Below, piece by piece: positions 20,301 through 62,587 of a stretch of 64,000 nt of DNA. The stretch comes from Lama guanicoe (taxonomy: Eukaryota): NCBI GenBank assembly GCA_013239625.1, contig MU053629.1, positions 96,676-160,675 of the forward strand. The letters are read 5' to 3'. Made by a program: the position numbers and the translations under genes. The notes below the pieces were generated by a model, which saw only the letters and a program-made list of their open reading frames with translations, was not told where the DNA came from and did not search any database. Numbering within the stretch: position 1 is the first letter of the stretch; each line of letters begins with the position of its first letter.

Positions 20301-23300
20301 ACATGAATAAGCACCAAATTTCATTATATTTTCAGTCTAGTCATACTTCAAATTCCCTGGTAATTCTATCATATATTTTAGCAAATTTAAGACACCACCA
20401 ATTATAAGCTGTAAGATAATTTTTAAGTTCTACCTCAAAAGAAAACAGTGTTATCAATTAAACTGTCATATCACCAATAATAATATACATTCTATTTTCA
20501 AATATGTTAACATGTAAAATAAATGCACATCTTAGAACCAATGAAATATCTGTTAACTACTGACATGGAAAATGCTTATTTCTAAAACTACGTATTTTCC
20601 TCTGGACCATCATTTCAAGCTGTGGCTATCTCTAAGAGCTGAAAATTATTCAGCTCCAGAAAATTATTGCATAACTATAGCAAGATGAAGCTATTTAATC
20701 ACCCATCTTATCATATATACAACAAGCCTGAGTGTATCTAAGAGTAAACAACTCAAATGGAGGGAAACACACACACGACTACAGGTAAGATAAAGAAAGG
20801 GGAAGTCTAGCCTCTTCCTCTCCATTTTTCTTAACACAGTTCTACATAAGAGTTACTGTGTGGTTGCTCAGTACTTGAAATACGGTGGAGAGTCTTATCT
20901 TAAATGTATCTGTAAGTATTAAATATACCCCAGATTTTTTAGATGTAAGGAAAAATAAAAAGATATAAAATATCTTAACAATTTTTAATTTTAATTGTAT
21001 GCTGAAATGATAATGTTTTGGATATTTTAAATGTTATTAATTTTAACAATTTCCATTTTTCTTTTTACTTTATTACTATGGCTACTAGAAAATTTAAAAC
21101 TACATATATGATTTGCATTACATTTGTATTGGACTTCAGGGGGCTAAAAGCTTAATTCGCTAAATCCCCCGTCTGGCTTTCACTTCCAGTTCTCCAGATG
21201 TGTTATCCAAACTCCTCACACATATAACCAAACTTGAGAAACAAATGAAGGAAAAAAAGCTGCCAACATAGATAGTTGTTCTAAAATTTAAGTGAACAAT
21301 ATTCAACATAAAATTTGAGGAAGAAAAAAACTATTAAAATCCTCCATCAACAAACGGGAATTAAATGGGAATCATGTCATTCACTATAATCTGATTAGAT
21401 TTTCCACCAACAATGCAAATATCAGATAAAATGAAGGAAAACTATTTCTTAAACTTGGTATTTATTTTCTTTCAAAATCACATATGTATCTATTTTTAGG
21501 AGTCGAATCTCAACACAACAAACCAAAAGAACCACCAAAGCACTGGAGAAGGAATAATCACATGGGACAAAAGCTGTTGAGATTCAAGGCTAATCAAAGC
21601 TATGAACGTCCAAATGAATCTTACCTGAGGTTTGGTCAGTTCAATGGCGATATTTTGTACTTCTATGTTCCAATCGAGTTTAGGTGTTCTGAGCTCTGTT
21701 TCTGCGTAAGGATTCATGTAGAGTTTTGCAGAGGCTGATATTGGCTGGAAAACTTATACCACATGGGAAGACATAAGATACGTTTATATGCCCTTACATA
21801 TGAACATATGTAAATAATTACGAGAACACTGTTACTCTGAAGGTAAAGAAAAATGATCAAAAACACGTCAAAAAATGTTAACAAAAACACTACCCAAAAC
21901 TATTTAAGCATCTATTTATGTGCATAATACTAACTGTCAAACTCAATGGTAAAAGTGGAATCTCCAAGGAGTAAATTGGTGTTCTATGCTTCTAAGTATG
22001 AAATGTACAAAATACAGACAATCTAATCCTGATTATTCTCAGTCTGTGTAAAATTAATGCTTCTCTTCCTTGCTACAAGACATTACTGCTTTTATTATTC
22101 ATGAAAAATGCTAATGCAAGGTAGGAAACAAAATTTAATTTCTGTCTTATTTAATCACTGTCAGAATTTAGGAACAGAATCATGAATGAAATTCATATTA
22201 CCCATTAAAAAAATTGCCTACTACTTTGCAATTTTCAATGATCATTACATGTATAATCTTAGACTCAACTGAAGACAATATTCTTAAAGTTGAAAAGTAG
22301 TATGAAAAAGTGTATTAGGGAAGATGACAGAGTAAAGTAATGTAATAAATTTTAATTGTGAATAGTATTAAAATTATATAAATTGTGATACCTTACAGTA
22401 TTTACAACTTGCGTAAGATTGTATAAAAAGTTTTAACTTATTTAGAGGTTACTTATACTGAATATGCCTAAGAATAAAGTCATATACTTTTCTGAACAAG
22501 TTCTTTCATGAATGAAACTAAATGCTCTAAACCAGCAGCCTCTGAAAGCTTTGTCACATAGAGGTCTGTGGACATAAAGAGCAAGTGCCAACCTCACATA
22601 ATGGCCATTAGCTATGAAAGAATAAAAAGAAAACAGTGAACCAGAGTAGCAATGGAAGAACATGGGCATGAAAGCTGCGAACAAACCTAAAGAGCTACAT
22701 TAAAGCAAAAGGATCGCATCTTTAGAACGAAAATGAAATAGAAAAAATGAGATAAAGAAATAAATATGCAGGCAACTTTGTTAGAGATCTATTTTAAAAT
22801 AAATAAAGGTGAGGCTGCCAAGAAATAGAAAGGCTCACTTTAAAGAGAAGATCTCTGGAGAAATTCAAATCAAAACAGCAATGAGAAAGCCCCTCATACC
22901 TGTCAGAATGGCTATCAACAAAAATCTACAAATAAGAAATGCTGGGGAGGATGTGGAGAAAAGGCAAACTTTGGGCACTGCTGGTGGGAAACGTAAATTG
23001 GTACAGCCAGTATGGAAAACAGTATGGAGACTCCTCAAAAAAACAAAAATAGAACTACCATGTGATCCAGCAATTCCACTCCTGGGTACAAATTCTGAAA
23101 AAATGAAAACACTAATTCAAAAAGATACATGCACCCCAATGTTCGCAGAAGTACTATTTATAATAGCCAAGACTTGGAAGCAACCCAAGAGCCCATCAAC
23201 AGACAACTGGATTAAGAAGGTGGGGTGTGCATATATAATGGATTATGACCCAGCCTGAAAAACAATGGAAAACCGTCATTTGCAGCACCATGGATGGACC

Positions 23301-32300: not shown

Positions 32301-35300
32301 TGCAATGAGGTATCATCTCATACTGGTCAGAATGGACATTATCACAAAGTCTACAAATAATAAATGTTGGAGAGGGTGTGGAGAAAAGGGATCCCTCCTA
32401 CACTGTCGGTAGGAATGTATATTGGTGCAACCACTATGGCAAACAGTATGGTGGTTCCTTAAAAAACTAAAAAGAGTCACCATATGGTCCAGCAATCCCA
32501 TTCTCATATATATGGAAAAAACTCTAATTTGAAAAGATACACGCACCTCAGTACTCCTAGCAGCACTATTTACAAGAGCCAAGACATGGAAGTAACCTAA
32601 ATGTCCACTGGCAGATGAATGGATAAAGAAGATGTGGTGCATATACAATGGAATATTACTGAGCCATATAAAAATGATGAAATAATGCCATTTGCAGCAA
32701 CATGTATGGACCTAGAGATTACCAAACAAAGTGAAGTAAGTCTGACAGAGAAAGACAAATATGATATGGTATCACTCATATGTGGAATCTAAAAAAGATG
32801 ATACAAATGAACTTATTTACAAAACTTATTTACAAAACAGAAACAAACCCACAGGTATACAACACAAATTTACAGTTACCAAAGGGAAAGGGTGGAGGAG
32901 GGATAAATTAGGAGTTTGGGATTAGCAGATATAAACTACTATATATAAAACAGACAAACAAGATTCTACTGGATAGCACTGGGACTAACATTCAATATCT
33001 CGTAATAACCTATACTGGAAAAGAATCTGAACAAGAATATATATGTATGTGTGTGTATAAACTGAATCACTTTGCTCTTACACCAGAAACTAACATAATA
33101 TTGTAACTCAACTATATTTCAACAAAAAAAAAGACAAGCTTCATGTGTAATTTCTAATAGCCACAATAAAGAAAGCAAGAACAAGTGAAATTAATTTAAT
33201 ATATTTAACCTGATACATCTAAAATATTCTCATTTCAATATGCAATCAAAGGGATTAAGATGTACAAACTATTAGGTGTAAAATAAGCTACATGGATATA
33301 CTGTACAACATGGAGAACAGTAAGCACTTTATAATCACTATAAATGGAGCACAACCTTTAAAAACTGTGAATCTCTGTATTGTACACCTGTAACTTATGT
33401 AATATTGAATATCAAGTATACTTCAATGAAAAATTCTAATTAAAAAAATTAATGTCATAAAATACACAATTACTAACTTAAATCAAGTAAACACTTACAT
33501 CATCTTCATATTTAATGTGAATGTCTGTGATTTTTACTTGAACATTTTTAATTACTTGAGTCGCCAATTTTTCCAAAAATGTATCCTTTTTGGCCTCTTT
33601 TGGTTTGTCTATAAAGAAAAGCAAAATACAAGTTCAAGAGTTGAAATTCTCATATCACTCATAAACAATGACCAAAGGACAGCCAAGGCACTACTGAACG
33701 GAAATTAAAACCTATTCTAGTGTCCTTGTTTGACTTTACATTTTAGATTTTGATATTCATTTCTAATTTAAAACTTATTTCTGAAGTTACATTGTAATCT
33801 AATATTCATTTTACCTTTGAAGACAGAAATGAAGCGGCAACGTGTACAAATAACACACAGCATAAAAACTACTTTTACCTACCTTTTGAGCGATCAAGAC
33901 CTTTAAAAGGTTTCTTAAAATGTTTTTTGTGCTTTTTACGTTTACGTCCTTCTCAGTGGAAGCATTTTAGTGAGAAAAGGATAAAATTCAAGTTAGCAGA
34001 CAAGAGGACAGTAAAGAAAACAAGAGACTTTTTCCTGACAGCAAATTCTGGTACAAGTCACCTTTATTCTAAACTGACCTGTTATTTCAATACAAGCAGA
34101 AATTCACAAACCTTCTTTAGTCTAGAATAACTTCCTTTAATCTAGAAAATAACTTGGCAGGTGTAATTATACAAAAATTGGATAAAATATCTATACACAA
34201 TGCCCTTTATAATATTTATGGCTTTTCACAATACAAAGTTTTTCATTTCAATGTTACCAAAATATTGGAAATGTAATAATGATGGGATATGAAACTTTCA
34301 GAAAAAGGTGTTGATAAATGTGTGGTAGGAACACAAATGAAATGAATGGGCCGCCTGCTGACTGATGACTTCCTCTGGATGACAGACCTCACAAGCAGAA
34401 CCCTTTCATGAATACATGAAGGTATAACGAATACAAAAAGGGCAGAAAATGTACTTGGAACTGTACACTGAAATTAGCTTAATAATTCCTTCAAAACCTC
34501 ATCCACTGTTATTTGGCACTGCCTCACTCCGTGGCATTAACCCACACTTAATCTTATCCAACTTACAAAGCTTTACATTCAACTGCCTACTGCACCTCAG
34601 CTCCTGTCCATGCTCTTGGGGCAGCCTCTGTATGGTCTCCCCTGCCTCCAGTCTCCACTCTTACCTCCAACCTAATGTCCTTCTATACTGCTACCAGACT
34701 CTTATCTTCTAAAATACTATTCATGGCCTGTTTATTACCTGCTCAAAATTCTCTTAAAGGGTCTTTGCAGCCTGACAGATAAAATGAGCCAGGGTTTATG
34801 TGACACAAAGGCCCTTTCATGATATGACCCCTATTTCCCCATCTGGTTCTATCTCCTGCCACTTATCCTTGTACTGGACACTTCAGAAATATTACTTATA
34901 TTTTCCAAAACAAGCCATGATTTTCTAACGCCTAATGCCTCTACATGCGTCATTCTCTGAACTTGGGTTGCCCTCCCTGAGTTGTTCAGTTGTTCACCAG
35001 GCAAATGCCTAGGGGGCTTCCAAAACTCAGGCCCCGCACTACTGCCTATGTAAAGCCTTCTTCAAATCCTCCAGGCATCTCCAGGGCCACCTACCCCTGC
35101 ACCTTATACAGACTTCCATCAAGCAGTGACTACACTGTATTTGAAGTGTCTGCACAACTGTCTTGTCACCAGGCAGGAGTCTTCATTAGGACAGGAATTA
35201 TCCTAACACCTGGGCACAAAGCGCATGATACGTATCTGTTCAAAGGAATCAAAAAAGTCTACATCTGAAGATTATAATAAAATACATAAGCTCAGTCAAT

Positions 35301-38300: not shown

Positions 38301-40477
38301 GGGCCTCCAAAGCTACTTCAGGGATGAAGTAAATCAGGGAGGCTATGAGAAGAACGTCAGAGAAACATTCCTTATCAAGGTTCTAAAATAAAGTATGTCT
38401 CCAAAAAAAAGGCTCCTTTTTATTGCTTTTTACAAGTTTGAAAACCACTGCTATAGGGGAGGAATCGCTTAACTGAGAAACTACTATTCAACAGAACTAA
38501 ATCAGAAAGGCAGCTGGGATTTGAGTGTTATTATAAATTAAACTTCAGAAGGGCTGTGGATCATGTCTGTTTCACCCCATGAACACTCAGCACCCAGCAT
38601 AGTGCTTGCCAGAAGAAGGCATCAAAGTATTTGGTGAATGAATAAACGGCTGGAGAAGGTAGGGGAAAGGAAATGACGGTAAAGGGGAAAAAGATGAATT
38701 ACATTTCCATATTTTCTAAAAGGATGACACGTCATCATGTGAACTCCATGAAAAGCACAAGCATGGATAAGAATATAATTTTGCATAGAGCTGAATATAA
38801 TTAACCATGCATACCCACCAGGCTTGATGTCCTTATAAACAAAGGTTTCCAAGCCATAGATGAACTCTCCTGAATGTGTGCCTGCATCCGCATGGCAGCA
38901 ATAATCAAAATGCAAAGCATTTAAAAGACACCTTTAATTTCACATGCAAAATATGTCTAAACTTAATTCAAAGAATCAGAATCATGTAATAGAACAAGTA
39001 TAATCCAGTGACACCAAAACAACTTATTTCTAAGGAAATATTCTCAGTGACACCGTTTTCACTCCTTCAACAAACTTTGTTTTCATAACATTCAAACAAA
39101 ATTGTTAATAAATAAAATTATAAGAATTAATAATTTCAAATTAAGAAAAACAAATACCAATTACAGCTAATGTCTCATTGACTGACATATTTTCAAACAG
39201 AGCAAAAGTCTGCTATTTTGGTTCCCTTTTTGCCCACCATTTTGCCCATTTTCAGGATGAAATATTGCTGTGATATTTACACTAATTTTAGAGTCAGCTG
39301 AAATGAATTCATCTTACTTTATTGTGATGTTCCCTTCAAGACACACTGAATCCTTCCTATCCACTCTTGTTGATGACTAGGGAGCACCATCTTCCGTTTC
39401 TCTCCCTAAATCCAGCCTAGACATCACCACGAGCTTAACCTTCCTAAAACACGGCTGTGGGCACATCACTCCCTGGATTTTTAAAGAAAAAGTGAAACTT
39501 ATTGACTCTCTCAGTGGCTACCAATTGAAGTCCATTATAACACAGAGTCGAGAATGTAGGATCTGGAGCCAGGCTGGGTTCAAATTCCAGCTTTATCATT
39601 TTCTAGCTGCATAACCAAGAACAAGTAATTTAACTTCCAGTTTTCTCAGCTACAAAATGAGAACAATAAAAGCCCTTATATCATAGAATTATGACTATTA
39701 AATGAGTCAGTTCATACAAAGCATTTTGAAGAGTGATTGGCAAAGAGTACACTCAAAATAAGTACCAGCTGTTATCTTTGCCATCATCATCATGGCATTC
39801 AAATCTCTTAAAACTGACCTCGACTTAGCTTTCCAACTCACGTCCAACTACACCATCAAACTCCCAAATTCTTAGCTGTTCCCCACACATGCTCTGTACT
39901 TTTCCATCTCACCGTCCTAGAGGACCTAGAACGCTCTCTCTTTTCTGCATACTCATCCTCTACACTCAGCTGAAATATATACCTTCACAGTGTGTGCCCT
40001 GATCTCTGGCAGAACATGATATGCCCATTATGAAATCCCTTAACACTTCATCAGTACCTCTTGGATGAGACTCAACATTTTATCCTATTTACTATTATAC
40101 ACGAGGTCTTTGATACAGTAGGCTCCAGGAATTTTCTAATTTTTGTGTTTCCAACAATGTGTTGAGCAGACTGGCATTAGACTTCTCAAAACTATCTGGA
40201 AGCTAGAAGATTTTGCCTTCAAAATTCTAATGTTAAACGCAGCATTTTATTCCCAGTCAAATCAAACAAGTGTGGAAGTAAGTTACAAAGACTTTCAGAC
40301 TTGAAAGGACTCTTTTAAAAATTATTTCTAGTGCATCCTTTCATAAAAGCTATTAGAAATGCTCCAGCAAAACAAAGGAATAAACTAACAAAAAAACAAA
40401 AGGCTAGGGACTCAATGAATTAAAAACAGAAGAGCAATCAAAACAAGTTCCAGGATGACAATTGCATAGCAGAACTT

Positions 40478-41473: not shown

Positions 41474-41504
<31 letters not shown>

Positions 41505-44500
41505 NNNNNNNNNNNNNNNNNNNNNNNNNNNNNNNNNNNNNNNNNNNNNNNNNNNNNNNNNNNNNNNNNNNNNNNNNNNNNNNNNNNNNNNNNNNNNNNN
41601 NNNNNNNNNNTGTGAACTAGAAGGCAGCTGAAGGCTTTTATATGAATAATGCTATATGAAGATAAGCTCCATATTCACAGAAACTAGAAAAAATACTTAT
41701 ATGCAGTCAAAATATTTTATGTGCCTTGCTTTATTTGGCACATAAAAGTAATGGAAATGAAGAAAGCTGTTTTTATAGAAATACAGATCCTTAAGCTTCA
41801 GCCAAAACACAAGATACAGTTAAGTATGAAAAGAGAAAGGAAAAAAAAGTTTAGGTTTTTAAAACTTTCTACCATCATGACAGCCTCTGTATTCTAAGTA
41901 TTTCAGTACTTTTTCATTAAAGAATAATACTGTGTAAGAGAACACTACGGGCAAAAAGAATCAGAATCATTGATAAAAAATTTTAATGAGCAAGTTATTT
42001 TTTAAGAGAGATTTCTCACTGATTTAATTAAATATCAGCAGCTTAAGATAGGAAAAGAAATATTATCATATCTAAATGCAATTTCTGTCATTTCTAACTC
42101 AACATTTGCCATATATTTTAAGATAGACCAAAGAGAAATGCCTGAGCATTTCTGGTACCATTTACTTTCATCAGAGAAATATATAAATATTCCACTTAAT
42201 GACACAAAAATGATGTAAAATGCTCTCATACCCCACTCGGTGATCAGGGTATGATCTGACTTGAAAAACAGACTGGAGGTTTGGCAAGCTCCTTCAGTTC
42301 ATCTTGCTCCATAAACCAAAGCAAAATAGTCACCAGATTTATTTTTAGATACAAACAAAACATTAAAACTTAAGGCAAGATGTTAAGATGTTGAAGTCTG
42401 AAGAATCAAGTTTTTAAAATACCCTATATAATATAAAGAGATATGGCTAGGAATAGCATTATGTACCAATTCCTCTAAACACTATTTCACTATATTAATA
42501 CACTGAACCTTACTATCTTCCAAGAATACAGGTGAAAATGCAGACAAAGAAACCAGTAACCTTTGGCAAAAATAAAGAGGCCTGCAAGAACTCAAAGAAT
42601 TTGGGAAGTCTCCATAAGGTAGCATAGTAAAAATGACAAATTAGGAAAAGTAGGAAAATTAAACTGGCAGTGAGATAAAACAGTCACAAAGGCAGTGACT
42701 CCCAAGCGTGAGTCATTAAAATCTTCACAGTCGGTATTATGAAACATGATTTTAAAAGATTCTTCTTTGGAATGACAGCTTATGAAAGCCTAAGAAAGAT
42801 CCTCTTTGCGGTGCATTAAACATATCTAAAACACAGATATATGTATATTTATCTAAAACATAAACTTGTTTTACCTTTCTCTGCTGCTTTTTGAAGGGCT
42901 TCTTCAATTCGGGATAGCTCTTTCTGTTTAATATCTTGCAAGGATTTTTCTTCCTTCTCAGCATCATATTTAATACCTAGAAATACATAGTTAATTCACA
43001 CATAAAGGCAATTAATAAAAAATATATAAGAAAAGTTCAGCCTCATAATATTGTGTGGGGGGTAATTTGTCATTTTTTTGTGAGTCAAAAAACATTTATA
43101 TTCTTCAGATTAGTTTTACAAAAAGTTTAAACATAAATGATTTCTATTTATTTACAAAGCTTATATCAAAAGGAAAAGGAGGGAAGGAAAAGAATTAAAG
43201 AGAGAAAGAAGACAGGAAAAAGGATAACTGGAGAAAAGGGTGAATAGAAGGGTGCAAGGGAGGAACAGAGGGAAGGCATAAAATACATCAAAAAATTTCC
43301 AGTTATTATATATCTCAGTGGTAAAATTTTAAGTAACCACAAAAAGCATGCAGCATCCAACAGCAGCTGGTATCAATGTAACATTGATAAAAAGAATTTC
43401 AATAAGTAATTCAAGAATATCTGTCAACAATCATAAAATATATACATATATATCCTTTTTATCTGGCAAACTCATTTCTAATCATGTATCCTACGGAAAT
43501 AACAGAAAAGAGTAAGAAGAAAATCTATAAGGTAGAGTTTATAATGTTCACTGTAACAGCAAAAAACAGCAGGTAGTTCACAATGGAATATCATATAGCC
43601 TTTCAAAATTATCACTATCACCATGAAAACTGTGAAACATATCAAAAAATACATATACTAAGTGAAAAAGCCAGATCCATATTTTATATATATATATATA
43701 TATATATAATGTAATAAATGATGTACCAACTCAAGTATGTATACAAAATATAAAAATAAAAACTGTGTTTCTTTTATGGTTGAGAACATGTAAGTAATTT
43801 TTCTCTGAAATATCCAAGCTTTTCTTAACATTATATTGTTCTCAAAGTGAAAAAACATTAATAATGGAAGACATTACTTAAATAAACATCATTGCTTTAA
43901 AAGTCACTACAAATTAAAATATAAAAAAATTAAAATACTTTATAATGAAAAAAATTACTTATTTTACACACATTTTTGAAAGAGTATTCACTCAAAATCA
44001 GAAACAAAATGGGGAAAAAATGTTTCCAATCTGTAGATTAACAGTACATTTCTTAAAACTTATTCCCAAAAGAAAATCTGTCTAATGTATCTCAACTTAA
44101 TAGGAAGCCTTAGTTGCAAAATGACTATTCATAGAAAACAGAATAAATTTCATAAGTGGTTGAAATTATTCTTTCCAACAATAATATAAAAATAATTTAT
44201 ATACAAATGTGGCAATATATATGTATATGCATGAAATATATGAATATGTGTACATACATGGATGTGATTAGTTTATTTAAATTATCTTCTATTTTACTAA
44301 ACATATTAAAATACTTAACCTAGGAAACAATTTAATTTTACTATGGTATTATTGAATGGTTACAACCTAAAATAACATACTTGCTCCAGGAACAACAAGC
44401 AGGTACAGTCCCTCTAGGGTTGCAACAACAGCTTCTCCATAAAGGTTCTTCCAAGGGATCTTCAAAGTTAATTTATCTAAAGAAACATAATTTCAACCCT

Positions 44501-47500: not shown

Positions 47501-50500
47501 CACTTTAGAAGGTAATTTTCTACCCTTTTGTCAAAAACTGTGAAGAACGTATATATTAGGTATAGTATATGTTAAGTGCAGAACTCCAAAAGCTGTAATC
47601 AACATTAGCCAAAAACCTCTTACTTTTTTTTCAAGCTAAAAAAGATGTTAAGGAACAGGTAAAATGACAAAAAAAACCTAAAAGGACTAAGAATAATACA
47701 AATGAAGAGTGAAGTACTTACCAATTTGGCCAGCCTTGACTTTAAAAGGAACATCCAATTCACTCTTCAGAAGTTCAAGCTAAAAAAGATGTTAAGGAAC
47801 AGGTAAAATGACAAAAAAAACTAAAAGGACTAAGAATAATACAAATAAAGAGTGAAGTACTTACCAATTTGGCCAGCCTTGACTTTAAAAGGAACATCCA
47901 ATTCACTCTTCAGAAGGAAGAAAGAAATTAAAGAACATCTTAAATTATTAAGCTCCCCACTAATCACCTTTGCATCATCACTTAAGGACACAATCAACAC
48001 TAAGGCAAAACATAAAACAAATTTTCTGTACTTCAGTAACTCGTAAGGGTATGTTTTATGGCTGAAAAAAGTTTTTATTAACTTAAACTTGACTCTGAAG
48101 AAGGAACTCATAAGAGAAGCAAAATTATAAGTAAGAACAACATAAACATAAAAAGAGTTTGTAATTAAAGAAAGTAATCAGGCAAATCGGTTACTTGTTT
48201 TATTAACCAAACCAAGCCAGATGGAAACTCTATGAACTCTTAAAATGACAGATGGACACTGCTTATCTGAAATACTAGAAAAGGAAGAGGAAGAATCTTT
48301 TCACTTAAATAAGTTGAAAACAAATGAACAATAATTCCTTCTCAAATGAAATACTTAGGAAATGAATAAATAAATCTTAAAAGAAATGGCAGATTCTCAA
48401 CATATTATTTACCACATTAGCATTCACTTTAGATAAGTCACTAACAAGTACTGATCAATAATAATGAACTTGCACTTATCCAGATTCAAAACCACTAGAA
48501 AGAAACTTCTGTATTCACAGAGTACTAAGCAATAACTTATATTCACAATGTTCACTTGAATCTTTAGAATTACCAAAAACTAAACCAGTCAGAATAGCCT
48601 TTCTGAGAGGGAAGGGTAATAGCTTAGTGGTAGAGCACGTGCTTAGAATACATGAGGTCCTGGGTTCAATCCCCAGTACCTCCTCTAAAAATAATTAATT
48701 AATGAATTAAACTAATTAGCTCCCCCACAAGAAATAAAATAAAAACTAAATTAAAAAAAAAAAGAATGGTCTTTCTGTTAGGTGTACCTTAGTAGATATA
48801 AATACTATTGAAATCTGGGCCTGAAATACATACTTCAGGTAACAATTAACTAAATCACTCCATTAACAATTAACTGAAATAATCAATTTAATCACTTACC
48901 TGATTATTCAGTATTTTGGGTGAACAGAGACTGAACAAAATACTAACAGATTTTGATAATAAATCTTTTTATTAGACCCAAACAAAAAATCCTCACTGGT
49001 GATAAGGGGGTAGCTCTACCGTCCAGGGGTGGGGAAGAGGAGAGGAAGAGGAGGGGGGCAGATAAATTCAAAGGTCTTCATATTATACAGAATACAAACT
49101 GAAAACTGTACACTTAGCTCTAAATGTGATCTCACACTCATTTTAATCCTCCTGAAGTTTCACACAAAATAAATGTAAAGAACCCATATCAAAGTGAAAC
49201 CTCACCAATCCAGTTTAATTGGGGGAAAGGAAGCTAGTTTGAATTAATGGAGCATAAATTACAAAATAATGTGTTAAATTATAACCAAAATTCAAATTAG
49301 GCTAACACAGAGTTCAATTTATCTTCTAAGTATGTTAGATATAAATATATATATATGTGCCCTGTAACCACAATTCTATTTTACCTTCTAAAAGATTTTT
49401 ATAAATAGGTTAAAAAAAAACCTTTATTCCAATCTCTAACAAAAGAATCTTAAGTTCTAAATTTTTGGATAAAATTTTTAAAGTTGTAGCATCCCATATA
49501 AAGGGAAGGAAAGAAAGTTTAAATCTTTTGTGTGTCCACTACTTGTCAAGCTCTACTTTTTAATCTTATTCAAGCCACAAAGGCAGAGAAATATCATACT
49601 GTTTTGTATTATTAACTCCATTTTAAAATGATTAAACTGATATTCAAAGAAATTGAGAAACTTGCCAAAAGTCACACAGCTGGTCAGAGACAAAGCTACC
49701 ACTCAAACCCAGGTACATCACAGTACAAGATCCATGACCTTTCCACTATGTCAATAATAAAATAAATTGCTACTTATAAAGTTCTACCCCAAGATCTTCA
49801 ACATCCAAAACTGGCTTCCATGACACCAGTCATGAGAGCATTGCGTGTACGAGACTCTCCCTAATTAAACAGTTCATCATGTAGAAATTCAACCGGAGGT
49901 CAAAGCTAGGATTATAAAACAAACTGTACATTAATTATAAATCTAACCCATCAATCAAAGAATAAACCCATTCTTAAGTGACTTCATAAACTCCAATTAA
50001 GTCCAACATGGAAATACCAAATGGCCAAATGAGGGATGGTGGAGGGACCTTGGAGGATGGGGTTTTTTTGTAGTAAATGACACAAATTACTTTCTAGAGC
50101 TACAGTCCAAAAAATCTATTTTACCTCTTAACATTATGGTATTATTGTAAGACTGGACTGCCAAGTATATTTCCAAAAATATAATTATTCATTAAATAAA
50201 ATGTTAAAATCAAGTCCTTATTTACCTGAAAAATATGCAAAGATAATTCTGAAGAAAACTATTTCATTAAGATAAATTCTACTACAAAGTTATGAAGTCA
50301 AATTAAGTTAAGGAAAAACATTCCATTTTTCCAAGAGATACTATTTTGATCATCAGGGAAAAAAATTTTTTTTTAAATCTTCAATCTCAGATTTTCCCAG
50401 AGCAAACTGTTAAATAAGTAATCCTTCTTCAAGTGACTCAATCAGTTTACCTGTACGTGATACCAGATACCTAGTAACGAGGGTTTCTAAGAGTTTTCTA

Positions 50501-53500
50501 AGAGCAAATTAACTGACTAGTCAACACAGGTGAAAAACAAAAACAAAAACAAAACACAACTTACCAGAGCATTTTCTTTAATCTGGAGATTATCTAAAGC
50601 CACATTACCTTCAAAAAAGAAAAAGATGAAAAATATAAAGTTAACATACCAATTAGTATAATCTGTCTTAATGCAGTACCAAACACTACAACACTGTGAT
50701 AATGGTAAGAATTGAGCAAAGCAAACTTCAAGAACAGAAGAGTTGCGACTCATAGACAAAAATATTAGTTGTAGCATCCTTTAGGTTAGACCAGTGCAAA
50801 AGAATTATAAAATATTTAAACTGTCTGACATTTAAATAGACAATAAGAAAGAAGTTGAAGGCTTTCAGATCAAAGAACTTTAGAACCAAAGAAAGTATCC
50901 ATCATTTTGAATGATTAAGCCAAAATCTCAAAAGAAGGAAATAAAGTGGTGACTACTAGAACAGATCAATTATCCTGTAACCCAAGATTCTTTCCTTTAG
51001 CAAGGTGTCAATGGATATTTTCTACAGGAGATACTGTGTTAGTCTTTTAAAACTTCAAGCATCCTATCTTACCAATAATAATTATTCTTTCATTAGTCCA
51101 ACTTTTAAAAAATCTATTCAGATATTAACTTATAAAAACTAAAGCCATAATGACATGATTACATGACTCAAATTTTAAACACTGCACCTATATTTGTTTA
51201 TATACAACACAAATATTCTTGCTTATGTGAAAACTTAAGCAAAAGAAAAAATTTTCATTTCTCTTAAATTCTCTAAGGGTTACTAAAACTACAGTTTCAA
51301 CATTAAATGCAAGTGTAAATTCTTCAGTTATGCATTTTCTTAATCATTCATGACACATTAATTTTTCTAAAAAAAATACAATGCTTCTCATGAGCCCCAG
51401 AAACATTTTTCAGTCAAGTAGTTTTTTCTTTATAGTATTTTGGAGTGAATTAAAAAGTGTATTTAACTCTATTATACCATTGTTAGGAATTTGCTTTTTC
51501 CCAGATAGCAGATTTATGCAAGCAAAATTTATTAAGCACCTCTTATGAGTTAGGTGCTGGAAAGAGAGAGAGAACTAGAACATGCCACTCACAGCCTAGC
51601 ACAGGAGACTAAATTTCTAAAATTTGGGAAATATTCTATATTCCAATACAGGAATGCATAAGATGCAAATGAGGAGCGACTTAACTCTGCATAGGAAGAT
51701 TAAGAACTTCACACAGAAGTTTAGGCTAGAAGACTGAAGAAATATTTACTGGGGACGTAAGAAAAGAGGGCAAACAGACACGCCTGAATAAGACACATTT
51801 CAGAGACCACAAGTGATCTGTTGCAGTTGGAGGGTGTGAGGAATGGGAAGGAGATAAATTCAGAAAGGCTGGCAGGCGCTAGACTAACAAAGAGTTTTTA
51901 GGATGAAAAGTTCAGACTGGTTACAACAGAGAGACAAAAATGCGTACAACAGGATGACAAAATCTGAGCTGTATTTTAGAACCATTATTCTACTATCCTA
52001 AAACACAGACCTGTCCACACAATTTAGCTACAAGGATATTGCAATATTGGTTTTAATACCAGAAAGACTGATGGAAGGGAGGGAAAGAAGGAGGGAGGGC
52101 CTAAAGAACTAAATGTCCAGGAAGATGGCATAAATCATAATCACCTATAATACAGAGCCAAAAAAATGTAGACAGGGAAAATGTTCATAAAATACTAATT
52201 TTTAAAAAAGATTAAAGAATGCCCAGATTGATTCAATTTTGAGATTATACATATAGGTAACAAACAACTGTAAGACTAGACACCATAACGTAATAATCAC
52301 AGTGGTTATTTCCATCTTTGTATACACATATTATAAATTTTCTAAAATATACTGCTAGAAACTGCAATAAAACGAAAGAAGGAGGTAAGAAGTCTCGCAA
52401 GTGGGAAGAAAATACTACAGCATACTAACTAGGAGGAAAGCTTCTACAACACACTGAAGAGAAATGAAAGCCTGAAGGAGGCAGTAACTTCAGGGTCGAA
52501 GAGACAGAGTAAAATGTTATTTTGGAGGTAGAATCAGTAAGTTAAAAAGTTATTTTTGAGGTACAAATGACAAGATGCCATCACTGACCAAATGTAGAGA
52601 TAACACAGTAGTCATGGAAAACTGACATGTGTTAAGAGCTGGGGGGAAAAAATTCCTTAAAAAGGATTATATATACAAAAATTCCGTAAAGTAGAAAAAT
52701 ATTCCTGGATTTAATTCTGTGAGATGATGAAATGCAAAAAATTACAATTGGGAACTCTGTTCAAGCCAAAAGAAGTGCTCCACACAGACGCTAGTGCATA
52801 TGTGAAGCAATCCAAACCAGTCAAGCAAGATCTAAGACCCACATGGAGACTTGTAAACTTGCTCGTGAATTTTGATGGTTCTACCCAGTGATTCTCAACT
52901 GGCAGGTCAATGGTTACCAGGAGTGCTCAGGAGTAACCTGCAGGAGGTAGGAAGCATTTTCTAACAATTGTTAAGGCACTAACATTATGTATGTAAAAGC
53001 AGAGATGTCCTCATAAACAGCATACTGTTTCTACCGCAGTGGCACTATGGTTCTTTAATGAAGTGACAGATGGTATTGTGAAATACTGAAAACTACCAAA
53101 ATGGATAACAAAGCTACACGAGTACATTTAGAAAGGCAGACCAAAAAAAGGTAATAGTGATTACTGCTAGAAGGTAGAATTAAGGGTTTTTAACGTTCTT
53201 TGGTATTTTCTAGTTTGTACAATAAAGAGGTATCACTTTTATGTTAAAATTATTATACAAATTATAATAAGAGCTGAGGAAACAAAACAAGGTGAATTCT
53301 AATCAATGCAACCTCAATATGTTTTATATAAATTCCTCCTATATCTAATATTTACCTTAATACATAAAAATATCTACTTCTACTGCTGGGAGGCCAGCAA
53401 ACACATACTTCCTCTCTGAAAAATGTGAATGGTATCTAACAAACAGTATATCTAACAATGAAATAAGAAAGATACAGTCTGTAAGTTATTTTCACTGAAG

Positions 53501-59500: not shown

Positions 59501-61466
59501 GGAAAAAAATATTCACAATGAGAATCACAGAGTACTGGCACTGGAAGGACACTTAGGGGTTAAGTGGTTCAACCCCTAAGTTTAGACAAAAAGGAAAATA
59601 AGATTTTGGAAGGGAAGGAATCTTCTAATGCATCCCCAAACTTTCTTTCTTTTAAAAAACATCTAAGGTAAATAGGGCAAAGCATTATAACTTGGGCAAA
59701 CAATGCTGAATAGTGATTACAGAGGAATATTATACTATCTGCTATGATTTTTTTTGTATTAAAGGTGAAATTAAAATGAAGAAATCAAGGGCCAGTAAGG
59801 TAAATGGATTTGTCCAACACAACCACCTAAAATCCAAGTTTCCTAAATGCTAGCCCAGAGCCTTTTCATATTTCAAATAATATTTACAAACTACAGGGAT
59901 AATAGTAACTTAATAATAATTTGCATTATTAGACTATAATCTGGGGAAACACTTGATCCCTGCAGAAGGCACTGGACATTTACTTCCTAAAATGTCTCCT
60001 TTACTTCTCTAGAATTCTCTTGCACCATACTTAGCATTGGAGGAGGGCGTGTGAGCAAAGTACGTATTGCTCGGCAAACCACAGTGAACCAATAAAGCAA
60101 TCAGTAACTGACTAAAAGCTGACTCCTCCATAATTTAGGGCAGCACAATTGCCCAATATAAATATATGGTCCATATATGTAATTATAAATTTTAGGAGTC
60201 AGGTCTCCTAAAAAGTAGAAAGAAATGGGGGAATGAATGTTAATAATTTATTTTACCCAATATATTCAAATATTATCATTTCACCATGAAATCAACATAA
60301 AAATCTGTTGAGATATTACACTCTTTCTCCTGAGTATTTTCAAAACTCGATGTGTACTTTATACTTACAGCACACCTCAATTTGCACTAACTACACTGCA
60401 AATACTCAACAGGCACAGGGGTTAGTGGCTACCTTTGGACAGATCAGTCAGACCCAAAACTATTTTATTGACGGAATTAAAAGCAGTTCCAACTATTTGA
60501 GGAGTCCTTTGATTTCCTTACAAAGCTGACAAAACTCCAAGTCCTTTGTAGACTAAGAAAACTAACCCCAGTGTCCCCAAAGGTTAACATGTAAGGGGTA
60601 CAAATAACAAAGCTTCTTGAAGAGTGCAGAAGCACGCTACTCTCTACATCTTACACACACAGCCTCTAGGATAGAAACAGGGGTGTAAATTCTTCCGTAT
60701 GCAACCAAGCAGCACCTAATTAATGATGATGCTGGTCGTGGCTTGAATTTCGCTCTATCGTTCCAAAACAAAAGTCACTTTCTCAACAGCTGAAAGAATT
60801 ATGAGTAAGAATCTCTACCGACAGTTCTTTCGTAAATATCTTCCCCCTGCTCGCTAACCACTGCCCGGGGACATAACTGAATCACAATTTCCTCTTTCTT
60901 CTCCTTGGTGCCACTGTGAGCGCGTGTGACCAAGCAGCCATCCTCGCTCCACGCGGGGCGGGAGCAGGGAGGGTTTTTTATGCTGCGGAGCCCACGGGGC
61001 CAGGCTGAGGGCAGCGGGAGGCCCCCCAAGGTGCGCAGGCGGGACAGGGCAGGGGCTTCGGCCTCAGGTACGCGAACGCTGGGAACCCCGGCAGCCCGGG
61101 CGCGACGCGGCCGCGCCTCCCCATCTTGGGCCGGCACCCCGGGACCCTGCGGCATTAGAGGCGGGCACAGGCCTGCCGACGCCCCACACCTGCCGCCCGT
61201 GGAGGGGACCCCGCCAAGCGCCCTCCCCGGAGGCGGAGCCTCGCGCGGTGAAGGGAGCAGGGCCCGGGCTGGAGCCGGGACGGGAGCAGCCCGCGGCGGG
61301 GGCCCCTCGGCCAGCGCCGGCACACCCCCCCTCCCCGCACCCTCCCGGCCGTGCCCTCCTGCTTACCGCCCCAGATCCCCAGCTTCAGCTGGGACTTGTT
61401 CAGGTTCTCCACATAGTCCCCCAGGAAGCGGTTCAGCAGGTCCGCGACCACCGACTCCAGCACCAT
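2304..61466 (-). CDS. VPS13C: VPS13C, partial (coding exons 1-24, 2408 nt, 802 codons + 2 nt; N-terminal chorein domain and start of the lipid-transfer groove); continues off the left edge
   Basis: N-terminus [48 protein letters not shown] matches VPS13C as I recall it. 24 GT-AG exons mapped by hand join in frame without stops. Confidence 0.97.
3682..4020 (-). mobile_element. Young 5'-truncated LINE-1 3' end with TSD
   Basis: Poly(T) followed by L1 3'UTR; direct repeat tttggttttctt at 3670-3681 and 4021-4032. Confidence 0.8.
4158..4281 (-). CDS. VPS13C: VPS13C exon 23 (124 nt)
   Basis: [41 protein letters not shown](G); AG/GTAAAC. Confidence 0.95.
5232..5368 (-). CDS. VPS13C: VPS13C exon 22 (137 nt)
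   Basis: (G)[53 protein letters not shown]. Confidence 0.95.
5723..5837 (-). CDS. VPS13C: VPS13C exon 21 (115 nt)
   Basis: [38 protein letters not shown](G); AG/GTAAGA. Confidence 0.96.
7089..7281 (-). CDS. VPS13C: VPS13C exon 20 (193 nt)
   Basis: [72 protein letters not shown]. Confidence 0.96.
8139..8281 (-). CDS. VPS13C: VPS13C exon 19 (143 nt)
   Basis: [47 protein letters not shown](K); AG/GTAAGT. Confidence 0.96.
8735..10320 (+). mobile_element. Cluster of LINE-1 fragments (endonuclease region, a 3' end, ORF2 C-terminal region)
   Basis: taaattctccaatcaaaagac, tgctgcctgcaagagac, gcaaatcaaagccacaatgagataccacctcacacc, ccagcaattccacttctgggtat. Confidence 0.85.
10396..10490 (-). CDS. VPS13C: VPS13C exon 18 (95 nt)
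   Basis: (T)[39 protein letters not shown]. Confidence 0.96.
10640..10723 (-). mobile_element. Very short young LINE-1 3' end with TSD
   Basis: Flanked by taatacactatttt (10626-10639) and taatatactatttt (10724-10737); same 3'UTR type as the 25336 and 30657 elements. Confidence 0.75.
11149..11278 (-). CDS. VPS13C: VPS13C exon 17 (130 nt)
   Basis: [43 protein letters not shown](T); acceptor tttttgag, donor GTAAGT. Confidence 0.95.
13490..13997 (+). mobile_element. MaLR solo LTR (MLT1F/G-like)
   Basis: cttgtttctaacaaatagaat..gcaaaggtgatg; cagatgagaccacagtcccagctgac; ends ttatgcagccgtagaaaacta. Confidence 0.7.
14000..15050 (+). mobile_element. Old LINE-1 5'/ORF1-region fragment
   Basis: aaagcctcagggacctgtgg, tttgaagaaataatggctgaaa; A-rich strand. 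Confidence 0.7.
14931..14960. repeat. (TG)15 microsatellite
   Basis: Read directly. Confidence 0.95.
15055..16650 (+). mobile_element. LINE-2 (L2a-like) 3' portion with a MIR-like element at ~16340-16600
   Basis: ttctcagtcctcag, catggctttaaataccacctat, tcagtgaggctttccctg, terminal aaatgaatgaa; MIR core aggaaactgagtc..cccaaggtcac. Confidence 0.7.
16863..17583 (-). mobile_element. LINE-1 insertion with 5' inversion (3' part on minus, ~16863-17373; inverted part on plus, ~17395-17583) and internal (TG)n
   Basis: Adjacent L1 segments in opposite orientation; degenerate TSD tgtagtttatttttttaatt / tgcaatttattttttaatt. Confidence 0.8.
18200..18262 (-). CDS. VPS13C: VPS13C exon 16 (63 nt)
   Basis: [29 protein letters not shown]. 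Confidence 0.95.
19431..19602 (-). CDS. VPS13C: VPS13C exon 15 (172 nt)
   Basis: [65 protein letters not shown]. Confidence 0.96.
20154..20260 (-). CDS. VPS13C: VPS13C exon 14 (107 nt)
   Basis: [35 protein letters not shown](W); AG/GTAAGT. Confidence 0.96.
20370..20548 (-). mobile_element. TcMar-Tc2 (MER104/Kanga-like) DNA transposon relic
   Basis: End tgcacatcttagaaccaatgaaata resembles the MER104 terminus as recalled. Confidence 0.45.
20860..21135. mobile_element. hAT-Charlie MER33-like relic
   Basis: tggctactagaaaatttaaaactacatat..tgcattacatttgtattggac. Confidence 0.6.
21625..21752 (-). CDS. VPS13C: VPS13C exon 13 (128 nt)
   Basis: (I)[50 protein letters not shown]. Confidence 0.96.
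22860..23677 (+). mobile_element. LINE-1 3' portion (ORF2 C-terminus plus 3'UTR and A tail)
   Basis: ORF 22809-23258 translates to L1 ORF2 C-terminus-like [30 protein letters not shown]. Confidence 0.88.
24075..24132 (-). CDS. VPS13C: VPS13C exon 12 (58 nt)
   Basis: [19 protein letters not shown](I); AG/GTAAGT. Confidence 0.93.
25006..25086 (-). CDS. VPS13C: VPS13C exon 11 (81 nt)
   Basis: [35 protein letters not shown]. Confidence 0.95.
25250..25860 (+). mobile_element. Nested LINE-1 3' ends (host plus two inserts)
   Basis: TSD aacaaggattcact at 25322-25335 and 25457-25470; repeated tattcagtatcttgtaataacct; three A-rich tails. Confidence 0.75.
26628..26687 (-). CDS. VPS13C: VPS13C exon 10 (60 nt)
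   Basis: [28 protein letters not shown]. Confidence 0.95.
29105..29164 (-). CDS. VPS13C: VPS13C exon 9 (60 nt)
   Basis: [28 protein letters not shown]. Confidence 0.95.
29882..30022 (-). mobile_element. tRNA-derived SINE (camelid Vic-1-like)
   Basis: Reverse complement ggggagagggtgtagctcaagcggtagagtgcatgcc..gaggtcctgggttcaatccccagtacc with A/B boxes and an A-rich tail. Confidence 0.85.
30657..30836 (+). mobile_element. Young LINE-1 3' end with perfect 13-bp TSD
   Basis: taagaataattct at 30644-30656 and 30837-30849. Confidence 0.82.
31805..33132 (+). mobile_element. LINE-1 3' ~1.3 kb (degenerate ORF2 plus 3'UTR)
   Basis: Continuous L1 similarity: aaacagacatttctccaaa, ccagcaatccca, atgccatttgcagcaacatg; A tail. 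Confidence 0.88.
33250..33450 (+). mobile_element. Short LINE-1 3' end
   Basis: gggattaagatgtacaaactatta..ttgtacacctgtaactt..tatacttcaat. Confidence 0.6.
33499..33608 (-). CDS. VPS13C: VPS13C exon 8 (110 nt)
   Basis: (D)[44 protein letters not shown]. Confidence 0.96.
33883..33948 (-). CDS. VPS13C: VPS13C exon 7 (66 nt, symmetric polybasic cassette exon)
   Basis: (G)[21 protein letters not shown]; acceptor cttccactgagaag, donor GTAGGT. Confidence 0.92.
35912..37359. mobile_element. hAT-Charlie DNA transposon (Charlie1a-like), both ends present
   Basis: Ends cagttctcaa.. / ..ttgagaaccactg; 8-bp TSD ctctaaag (35904-35911) / ctctaaaa (37360-37367). Confidence 0.78.
36365..36497 (-). mobile_element. 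tRNA-derived SINE (Vic-1-like) inserted in the Charlie element
   Basis: 16-bp TSD caagtggtagtttctt at 36349-36364 and 36498-36513. Confidence 0.88.
38819..38881 (-). CDS. VPS13C: VPS13C exon 6 (63 nt, symmetric cassette exon)
   Basis: (G)[20 protein letters not shown]; weak acceptor tgccatgcggatgcag, donor GTGGGT. Confidence 0.92.
39540..39790 (+). mobile_element. MIR SINE within L2-like sequence
   Basis: tctggagccaggctgggttcaaattccagct..caagtaatttaac..ttttctcagctacaaaatgag. Confidence 0.65.
41505..41610. other. Assembly gap (106 N) in intron 5, preceded by a poly(A) run
   Basis: Run of N directly after the A-tract at 41478-41504. Confidence 0.99.
42875..42976 (-). CDS. VPS13C: VPS13C exon 5 (102 nt)
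   Basis: (S)[41 protein letters not shown]. Confidence 0.95.
44381..44476 (-). CDS. VPS13C: VPS13C exon 4 (96 nt)
   Basis: (D)[31 protein letters not shown](S); AG/GTATGT. Confidence 0.96.
47722..47764 (-). other. VPS13C: VPS13C exon 3, copy B (identical 43-nt duplicate)
   Basis: Same 43 nt as 47865-47907, 143 bp away. Same GTAAGT donor, but only 9 nt of the original acceptor retained. Confidence 0.85.
47865..47907 (-). CDS. VPS13C: VPS13C exon 3, copy A (43 nt, native polypyrimidine tract)
   Basis: [14 protein letters not shown](D); acceptor tttctttcttccttctgaag, donor GTAAGT. Confidence 0.93.
48606..48762 (+). mobile_element. tRNA-derived SINE (Vic-1-like)
   Basis: tagcttagtggtagagcac..gaggtcctgggttcaatccccagtacc; TSD agaatagcctttctg / agaatggtctttctg. 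Confidence 0.88.
50565..50608 (-). CDS. VPS13C: VPS13C exon 2 (44 nt)
   Basis: (G)[14 protein letters not shown]; acceptor tttttgaag, donor GTAAGT. Confidence 0.95.
53787..53925 (+). mobile_element. tRNA-derived SINE (Vic-1-like) with (TAAA)n tail
   Basis: Perfect 15-bp TSD taagattaagactaa at 53772-53786 and 53926-53940. Confidence 0.9.
57275..57766 (+). mobile_element. Tigger1-derived non-autonomous DNA transposon
   Basis: caggcagacctcg..tgaaggtttgtggcaatcctgcat..ggtctggaacc..caatatctcc..gcctg followed by TA. Confidence 0.8.
58550..58747. mobile_element. MER20-like hAT-Charlie element
   Basis: gtgacaaccaaaaatgtctc.agacat; ends ggttgaaaaccactg. Confidence 0.75.
60230..60445. mobile_element. 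MER3/MER33-like hAT relic
   Basis: gtgtactttatacttacagcacacctcaattt..tagtggctacc..ttggacag. Confidence 0.6.
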
Positions 61467-61960
61467 AGTGGGGCCGCGGCGCGGGAGAGGGAGGAGCCGG
61501 AACCGCCCGGCGCAGCTGAGGGTGGCGACCCGCGCCGCGAATGACAGCCCCCCGGGCGCCGCCCCGCCCCCGCGCCGCGCAGCTCCGCGCGTGACCCGGC
61601 CTGTGCGCAGGCGCGCCGCCGCCGCCGGCTCCGGAAGGTGCGTGGACCCGCGGCAGACTCGCCCCCTCGGAGAGGTGGCCCCTGCGGCCCCGGCCACCCG
61701 GGAGCGGGCGGAGGCGCAGCGGGGAGGCCGGCTCTGGGCCTGTCGGAGCGGCCTGCTCCGGAGGAAAGGGATGTTAGAGAAGGAAAGGGGAGGGCAGGAG
61801 TTGTTGAGCGCGGGGACATCTCTGTCGGCTCTGCTTCCCCGCCGTCGCCTCCTGTTGACCTCGTCCCGGCCGAAAGCGGCGCTGCGGCGCCTCGCCCGGA
61901 GCCCAGCCGGTGGCAGCCCGGCGCTTCCCAGGCCTCCAGTCCACCCTGAGCGCCTCCTAA
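60920..61960. promoter_or_regulatory. CpG island / VPS13C promoter
   Basis: Abrupt GC- and CpG-rich block over exon 1. GC box at 61561-61570, NRF1-like TGCGCAGGCGC at 61604-61614, ETS CCGGAAG at 61631-61637; no TATA box seen. Confidence 0.9.
61367..61466 (-). CDS. VPS13C: VPS13C exon 1, coding part (100 nt)
   Basis: cccactATGG (A at -3, G at +4); [33 protein letters not shown]; donor GTAAGC. Confidence 0.97.
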
Positions 61961-62587
61961 GAAACCATCCCTTCGGGAGGGGAAAAGGAGACCCTGCACA
62001 CTTGCGCTGTTACCTATCAACTCCACCTAGAACCAGCTCTCCGCCTCTTTTTGCTTCCTGAAAACACACTTTAATAATTTACAAGTGGAAGGAGGGGAAA
62101 CAGCCGCATCGTAAAATGGCAGATAGAATGGAAACTGAATATGCATTTTGTTAACTCGTTCTTTTACTCCCTTTTGTGCCTGATTGGCTCTTCCTTAACT
62201 CAGGGGCTACTTCTTAGTTATCTACCTCATTACAGAAATAAAAAACAAAACGTAGTACTTCCTTGATTTTCCATAAGGTATGGCTTAGCTGTTACTTATT
62301 TATCGCGTTCTTTCATGCAATCATTGAACTGCTTCTGGTGTGGCAAGACGTAGAAAGTGGGGCTTTTATAATGCAAGGACTTTTTAAGTTAAGTAAATGA
62401 AACCACCCACTGACAAGCCAATTCTCTTCAGAGAACAGGATTTTTTTCCCCTAAAATTTATTTCAGAAAACTGTTGCGATACCATAAGCTGAAATAAACC
62501 TAAGAAATATTATTCGTAGTCACAAGTTTTTTTTAAATGCTTTGCTACACTTTATGTATGGAAAACTATGTGTGAATTGCTCTTAAC

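What the first reader, a model, noticed from the sequence alone, without database searches (positions are those of the whole stretch)
47630..47916. Tandem duplication of VPS13C coding exon 3; including both copies gives an immediate stop
Seen: two adjacent ~143-bp units each contain the complete, identical 43-nt exon 3 with its GTAAGT donor. They differ only by a 1-bp indel and one substitution in intronic bases. Because 43 is not a multiple of 3, splicing copy A to copy B over the 100-nt mini-intron reads ATT G|AG TGA, stopping after codon 63. Established: such early premature stops are typical NMD substrates, tandem exon duplication is a known origin of mutually exclusive exons, and VPS13C loss of function causes PARK23 parkinsonism in humans. 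Inference: if real, this is a very young duplication acting as a poison exon, a hypomorphic allele or a nascent mutually exclusive pair. Caveat: the window has an N gap, so it is a draft scaffold, and two near-identical units with two differences is also what a false duplication of two haplotypes at a contig join looks like.
Basis: partly seen in the sequence, partly recalled or inferred. Interest (0 to 1): 0.75.

Follow-up and report, generated by a model that had tools for sequence, protein, structure and literature searches.

The report
Probable false VPS13C exon duplication
A camel-family draft genome shows one small exon of the Parkinson's-linked gene VPS13C twice in a row; this is most likely an assembly error, and even if real the second copy lacks most of its splice signal, though I could not check it in raw reads.

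Summary
The duplication is in the sequence: two head-to-tail units (144 and 143 bp, one indel, one substitution), each holding the 43-nt VPS13C exon 3 and its donor. Including both copies stops translation at codon 64.

The extra (downstream) copy lacks the native pyrimidine tract, so its acceptor is weak. A new AG 15 nt upstream offers a 58-nt version. The stop lies 190 nt from the AUG, where NMD is unreliable.

With one exon 3, the gene is intact over 24 exons and 99.25% identical to camel VPS13C.

Whether the duplication exists in the animal is untested: no read or contig evidence at the junction was obtained. Indirect evidence (gapped draft scaffold, blunt junction, read-sized unit, two clustered differences) favours a false exon gain from two haplotypes or overlapping contig ends (about 0.70). 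A real but mostly skipped copy is about 0.22; a functional poison or mutually exclusive exon about 0.08.

Two notes on this genome describe other near-identical duplications, also unconfirmed in reads. Low interest until reads support it.

The parts
47630..47773 (.). Repeat unit A (144 bp), downstream in transcript order; holds the extra exon 3
47774..47916 (.). Repeat unit B (143 bp), upstream in transcript order; holds exon 3 in its native acceptor context
47773..47774 (.). Novel junction between the units: blunt, 0 bp microhomology on either side, no N
47865..47907 (-). VPS13C exon 3, native copy (43 nt, AAG acceptor with 16 of 17 pyrimidines, GT donor)
47722..47764 (-). VPS13C exon 3, extra copy (43 nt, identical; weak acceptor with 11 of 17 pyrimidines)
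47722..47779 (-). Alternative 58-nt form of the extra copy, using a TAG acceptor 15 nt upstream (predicted only)
47765..47864 (-). 100-nt intron between the copies; branch-point-like motifs at donor +61 and +73 (also +12, +19)
47677..47704 (.). The two differences in unit A (extra base near 47677; substitution 47704, partner 47847), 27 bp apart
47917..47927 (-). Part of the native pyrimidine tract of exon 3 that was not duplicated
47954..47986 (-). Intron-2 stretch that can pair weakly with donor +7..+36 of either copy (borderline against real-sequence controls; probably chance)
50565..50608 (-). VPS13C exon 2 (44 nt)
44381..44476 (-). VPS13C exon 4 (96 nt)
61367..61466 (-). VPS13C exon 1, coding part (100 nt), in a CpG-rich region
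41505..41610 (.). Only assembly gap in the window (106 N, after a run of 27 A), in intron 5; marks a gapped draft scaffold

Best explanation
A false exon gain made during assembly. The animal most likely has one VPS13C exon 3. Two contig ends, or a gap fill, covering the same ~143 bp were written one after the other instead of merged, probably because two variants 27 bp apart (two haplotypes, or a read error) stopped the merge. Shown: the duplication in the assembled text, blunt junction, two clustered differences, a gapped scaffold, an otherwise intact gene. Inferred: that the junction is absent from the animal's DNA, and the route by which the assembler made it.
For: The scaffold is a gapped draft (106 N). 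There are exactly two copies, with a blunt junction and 0 bp microhomology. The unit is about one short read long (inference). The two differences are clustered and one sits beside an 8-base homopolymer, as expected of a heterozygous bubble or read error (inference). With a single exon 3, 24 exons give 802 codons, no stop, 99.25% identity to camel VPS13C. False exon gains and 'duplicated overlapping contigs' from heterozygous sequence are documented classes, some joined without a gap through wrong gap filling (PMC9516828 passages and section 8; PMC2864568 passages). Weak: of 162 homologous proteins, 134 have the canonical exon-3 spacing, 27 lack the anchors, 1 is shorter, and 0 carry the exon twice or the +5 form; gene models would show one copy in either case.
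Against: No N at the junction, whereas false duplications are most often separated by a gap (PMC9516828). Two or more differences in 143 bp are uncommon between alleles: P = 0.03-0.07 at 0.2-0.3% diversity and 0.16 at 0.5% (assumed values), although assemblers break preferentially at such sites and South American camelids are admixed (PMC7331169 passages). The identical flanks are asymmetric (47 vs 69 bp), not what a single simple graph bubble gives. A real copy could be tolerated, since its acceptor is weak and Vps13c knockout mice are viable (PMC12463328). No read, depth or contig evidence at the junction was obtained.
Confidence: 0.7

Rival explanations
1. A real small tandem duplication (for example from staggered-break fill-in and end joining) that is nearly neutral. 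The upstream copy keeps its strong acceptor and is used; the downstream copy has a weak acceptor and is mostly skipped, so most mRNA is normal.
For: No N at the junction. 1.4% divergence fits a duplicate a few Myr old (assumed rates). The downstream acceptor scores -0.8 (or 2.0 at the upstream TAG) against 10.1 for the native one and a median of 6.9 for 22 other acceptors of the gene. Single knockout mice are viable. Blunt-junction tandem duplications occur naturally (recalled, no call).
Against: The second copy still has an intact donor, two branch-point-like motifs and a usable AG, so leak-through to a stop would be expected, yet neither splice site has decayed. A private young allele would not normally carry two differences. 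The draft-assembly context explains the same data without a biological event.
Confidence: 0.22
2. A real duplication acting as a poison exon or hypomorphic allele: a sizeable share of transcripts include both copies (43+43 or 43+58 nt), stop at codon 64 and lower VPS13C output.
For: All four modelled two-copy or intron-retained products stop early (codons 64, 64, 79, 74). Donor-to-branch distances of 61 and 73 nt exceed the <50-nt steric limit used in PMC5740500, so joint inclusion is physically possible. The next in-frame Met is at residue 265, so reinitiation would lose the N-terminus.
Against: Weak second acceptor. The stop at nt 190 may escape NMD, although the protein would still be lost. 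No RNA evidence, and no evidence that the duplication exists in the animal.
Confidence: 0.06
3. A nascent mutually exclusive pair: either copy is used alone, helped by frame/NMD selection or by a competing RNA stem whose one arm was duplicated; the 58-nt form would add five residues to the N-terminal domain.
For: Exon length is not divisible by three, as in 377 of 629 human clusters (60%; PMC5740500). Each single-copy form is in frame. An intron-2 stretch pairs with donor +7..+36 of either copy at -21.2 kcal/mol, loosely like the one-arm-duplicated stem model (PMC6071210, abstract only).
Against: The pairing is rich in G-U and A-U (21 of 26 pairs) and is matched or beaten by 7 of 200 real intron windows and 2 of 22 other exons of the gene. 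No steric block. The two 43-nt exons are identical. 0 of 162 homologues show the +5 form.
Confidence: 0.02

Closest known systems
False exon gain / heterotype false duplication (Ko et al. 2022, PMC9516828; passages and section 8 read) and duplicated overlapping contigs (Kelley and Salzberg 2010, PMC2864568; passages read)
   Same: Adjacent near-identical copies of an exon-bearing stretch in a draft diploid assembly, with a few allele-like differences; the rest of the gene is normal.
   Different: No N gap between the copies, and much shorter than the published examples I read. The defining read tests (half depth, discordant pairs, depth gap) were not run.
Pathogenic single-exon tandem duplications such as DMD exon 2 duplication (PMC9678653, search listing only; mechanism recalled)
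   Same: A frame-shifting exon present twice; including both gives an early stop, skipping one restores the normal mRNA.
   Different: Here only 143 bp are duplicated and the second copy loses its pyrimidine tract. No phenotype, RNA or read support.
Mutually exclusive exons born by tandem duplication (Hatje et al. 2017, PMC5740500, passages; Ivanov and Pervouchine 2018, PMC6071210, abstract)
   Same: Tandem copies of equal length and phase, length not divisible by three, short intervening intron.
   Different: Coding sequences identical, no steric block, no convincing competing stem, no conservation shown, no RNA support.

Membership tests
False duplication (false exon gain) | Near-identical adjacent copies in a draft assembly | tested here: met
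False duplication (false exon gain) | Assembly gap between the copies (usual, not obligatory) | tested here: not met
   No N at 47773/47774; the only gap is 41505-41610. PMC9516828 also describes gapless cases with a read-depth gap.
False duplication (false exon gain) | Half or very low read depth over the copies; no reads across the junction; discordant pairs | not tested
   No read or contig alignment at the junction was obtained.
False duplication (false exon gain) | Single copy in an independent or long-read assembly of the species | not testable with these tools
   No whole genome is held for the window and no mammalian genome collection is offered; protein models cannot show it.
False duplication (false exon gain) | Junction words missing from public DNA runs | tested here: inconclusive
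   14 DNA runs hold 0.74-0.83 of 92 sampled words. Ceilings are 0.905 for a single copy and about 0.94-1.0 with the duplication; divergence from the window is unknown.
Poison exon / NMD-coupled cassette | Inclusion creates a premature stop upstream of later junctions | tested here: met
   Stop at codon 64 in both main forms, by modelling only.
Poison exon / NMD-coupled cassette | Stop outside the start-proximal NMD-escape zone | tested here: inconclusive
   nt 190 from the AUG; zone about 200 nt on average, 22-100 codons by gene (PMC12776119).
Poison exon / NMD-coupled cassette | Functional splice sites on the extra exon | tested here: inconclusive
   Donor identical; acceptors score -0.8 and 2.0 on a crude 22-site matrix on which 1 and 2 of 22 real acceptors score lower.
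Poison exon / NMD-coupled cassette | Inclusion seen in RNA, rising on NMD block; conservation | not tested
   No RNA data examined.
Mutually exclusive exon pair | Same length and phase, either alone keeps the frame | tested here: met
Mutually exclusive exon pair | Steric block (donor to branch point <50 nt) | tested here: not met
   Plausible branch points at +61 and +73; threshold from PMC5740500. Motif scan only.
Mutually exclusive exon pair | Competing docker/selector RNA structure | tested here: inconclusive
   -21.2 kcal/mol beats 40 of 40 shuffles but is reached by 7 of 200 real windows and 2 of 22 other exons.
Mutually exclusive exon pair | RNA junctions to each copy separately, few or none joining them | not tested
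   No RNA data examined.

The most novel reading that the evidence does not exclude
The duplication is real in a South American camelid and is an alternative-splicing switch caught at birth. The copied intron sequence supplies a new branch point and acceptor, so the second copy works as a tunable poison exon when joined to the first and as an in-frame 58-nt alternative when used alone, possibly steered by a stem whose one arm was duplicated. That would be a natural dose allele of a Parkinson's gene in a large mammal.
Probability: 0.06. Interest if true: 0.55.

Novelty: not a real feature. Interest (0 to 1): 0.14.

Why it matters
If it is an artefact (most likely), it matters only as a warning: gene models, variant calls or guide designs over VPS13C exon 3 in this assembly would be wrong, and other near-identical duplications reported from this genome need read checks. 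If real, it would be a rare minimal example of a freshly duplicated coding exon, where one could measure how the spliceosome treats twin exons and whether VPS13C dose falls. Even then it would be a new member of a known class.

Tried and rejected
Whole-genome search: no genome is held for this window, so I could not count similar duplications across the assembly. Within the 64 kb this is the only near-identical tandem duplication with a 25-base exact seed.

Read or contig alignment at the junction: no result was obtained; the question stays open.

Word shares of public runs (20 of 24 listed runs hold part of the stretch, 14 DNA runs at 0.74-0.83): all lie under the single-copy ceiling of 0.905. 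The simulation fits both models if divergence is free: mean 0.77 at 0.5% for a single copy, 0.79 at 0.8% with the duplication. The junction is only about 3 of 92 words, and a private duplication would look like an artefact. Rejected as evidence.

Annotated homologues: 10 of 13 Camelus proteins are canonical and 3 lack the N-terminus; none listed was from a South American camelid. Not discriminating.

Slippage through microhomology: 0 bp on both sides.

Competing RNA stem: looked significant against shuffles (0 of 40 for both flanks) but not against real intron (7 and 14 of 200 windows; 2 and 4 of 22 exons).

Literature: none of the 15 papers listed of 1,954 mentions VPS13C. That search is not exhaustive, and no supplements were read.

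Full report
Observation. The window holds a two-copy tandem repeat at 47630-47916 (period 143, 98% matches, score 560). Unit A (47630-47773) and unit B (47774-47916) differ by one extra base near 47677 and one substitution (47704/47847), leaving identical blocks of 47, 26 and 69 bp. Shuffled windows give exact repeats of only 15-18 bp in 20 of 20 trials. The junction is blunt, with no microhomology on either side and no N. The only gap in the window is 106 N at 41505-41610.

Gene and organism. The minus strand encodes VPS13C: exon 1 matches the PDB VPS13C chain at 34 of 34 residues, and homologues map the exons from 61466 down to 2304. With one exon 3, 24 exons give 802 codons without a stop, and every internal exon has an AG acceptor and GT donor. 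The product is 99.25% identical to Camelus proteins (6 differences) against at most 95.5% for non-camelids; five differences are shared against all three Camelus species. So the animal is a camelid, probably South American (inference; an earlier AI note on this genome says 'alpaca-type'). I did not identify the assembly.

Splicing anatomy (modelled, not measured). In transcript order unit B comes first and keeps the native acceptor (16 of 17 pyrimidines, 10.1 bits on a crude matrix from 22 other acceptors of the gene, whose leave-one-out scores run from -4.1 to 12.5, median 6.9). Unit A carries only 9 nt of the native acceptor. Its AAG scores -0.8, and a TAG 15 nt upstream scores 2.0 and would give a 58-nt exon. 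Either copy alone is in frame (the 58-nt form adds five residues). Both copies together stop at codon 64 by either acceptor; a shifted acceptor stops at 79, retention of the 100-nt intron at 74, and skipping both at 51. Branch-point-like motifs sit 61 and 73 nt from the donor, beyond the <50-nt steric limit used by Hatje et al. (PMC5740500, passages), so nothing forces mutual exclusion. The stop lies 190 nt from the AUG, in the zone where NMD is often weak (PMC12776119, passages), but the next in-frame Met is residue 265, so such transcripts would still be null. If the duplication is real, the most likely outcome is use of the upstream copy with some leak to stop-containing mRNA.

Is it real? 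Public DNA runs of three coded organisms hold 0.74-0.83 of the sampled words (14 runs). That is below the single-copy ceiling (0.905), but it can be fitted with or without the duplication, so I do not count it. Of 162 homologous proteins, 134 have the canonical exon-3 spacing, 27 lack the anchors, 1 is shorter and none has a doubled or extended exon; gene models would look like this either way.

What is left is indirect. For an artefact: a gapped draft scaffold, exactly two copies of about read length, a blunt join, two clustered differences with one beside a homopolymer, and an otherwise intact gene. False exon gains and overlapping-contig duplications are described classes, sometimes without an N gap (PMC9516828, passages and section 8; PMC2864568, passages). 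For a real copy: no N at the join, asymmetric identical flanks, more differences than typical alleles show (P 0.03-0.16 for assumed diversity 0.2-0.5%), a weak second acceptor that would make it tolerable, and viable Vps13c knockout mice (PMC12463328, passages). Admixture in South American camelids (36% in alpaca; PMC7331169, passages) makes divergent haplotypes more plausible. As paralogues, the copies would be about 3-7 Myr old (range 0.4-25, assumed rates), which conflicts with 'very young'. My odds, which are a judgement and not a computation: artefact 0.70, real and near-neutral 0.22, real poison or hypomorph 0.06, nascent mutually exclusive pair 0.02.

A result against my reading. A stretch of intron 2 (47986-47954) can pair with the start of the intron after either copy at -21.2 kcal/mol, stronger than 40 of 40 shuffles, which recalls the one-arm-duplicated stem model (PMC6071210, abstract). 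Against real sequence it is borderline: 7 of 200 intron windows and 2 of 22 other exons reach it, and 21 of its 26 pairs are A-U or G-U. I treat it as probably chance.

Comparison and novelty. It looks like a false exon gain. One usual feature (a gap between copies) is not met and the read-based features are untested, so membership is probable, not shown. If real, it works like a single-exon tandem duplication of the DMD type (search listing only; mechanism recalled), with a weakened second acceptor. Earlier unchecked AI notes on this genome describe a 182-base exon copy in CUL2 and a 493-base target duplication at an RPS11 retrocopy, both unconfirmed in reads; they could share an assembly cause, which I did not test. 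PMC6598621 (passages) was read for background only.

Verdict. Observation confirmed in the assembly; interpretation partly supported; most likely not a feature of the animal. Interest 0.14.

Noticed in passing
window 41478-41610: A run of 27 A followed by a 106-N gap in VPS13C intron 5; the only gap in the window.
   Followed up: partly
window 38819-38881 and 33883-33948 (minus): Exons 6 and 7 are intact; together they encode 43 residues that some camel isoform models lack, so they look like an alternative cassette pair.
   Followed up: partly
window 4158-4281 and 21625-21752 (minus): Two residues differ from most mammals: Ser at 730 (Leu in 10 of 14 proteins scored, Ser in none) and Arg at 316 (Lys in 13 of 14). 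Lineage changes or sequence errors; not resolved.
   Followed up: partly
window 50609-50611 and 47908-47910 (minus): Exons 2 and 3 both use AAG acceptors, as do exons 7, 13 and 24; exon 17 uses GAG.
   Followed up: no
window 17468 and 23112: Two places 5.6 kb apart share an exact match of at least 25 bases; probably copies of an interspersed repeat, family not tested.
   Followed up: no
window 60001-62000: CpG-rich, GC-rich region (58% GC, 138 CpG in 2 kb) around VPS13C exon 1, as expected for its promoter.
   Followed up: no
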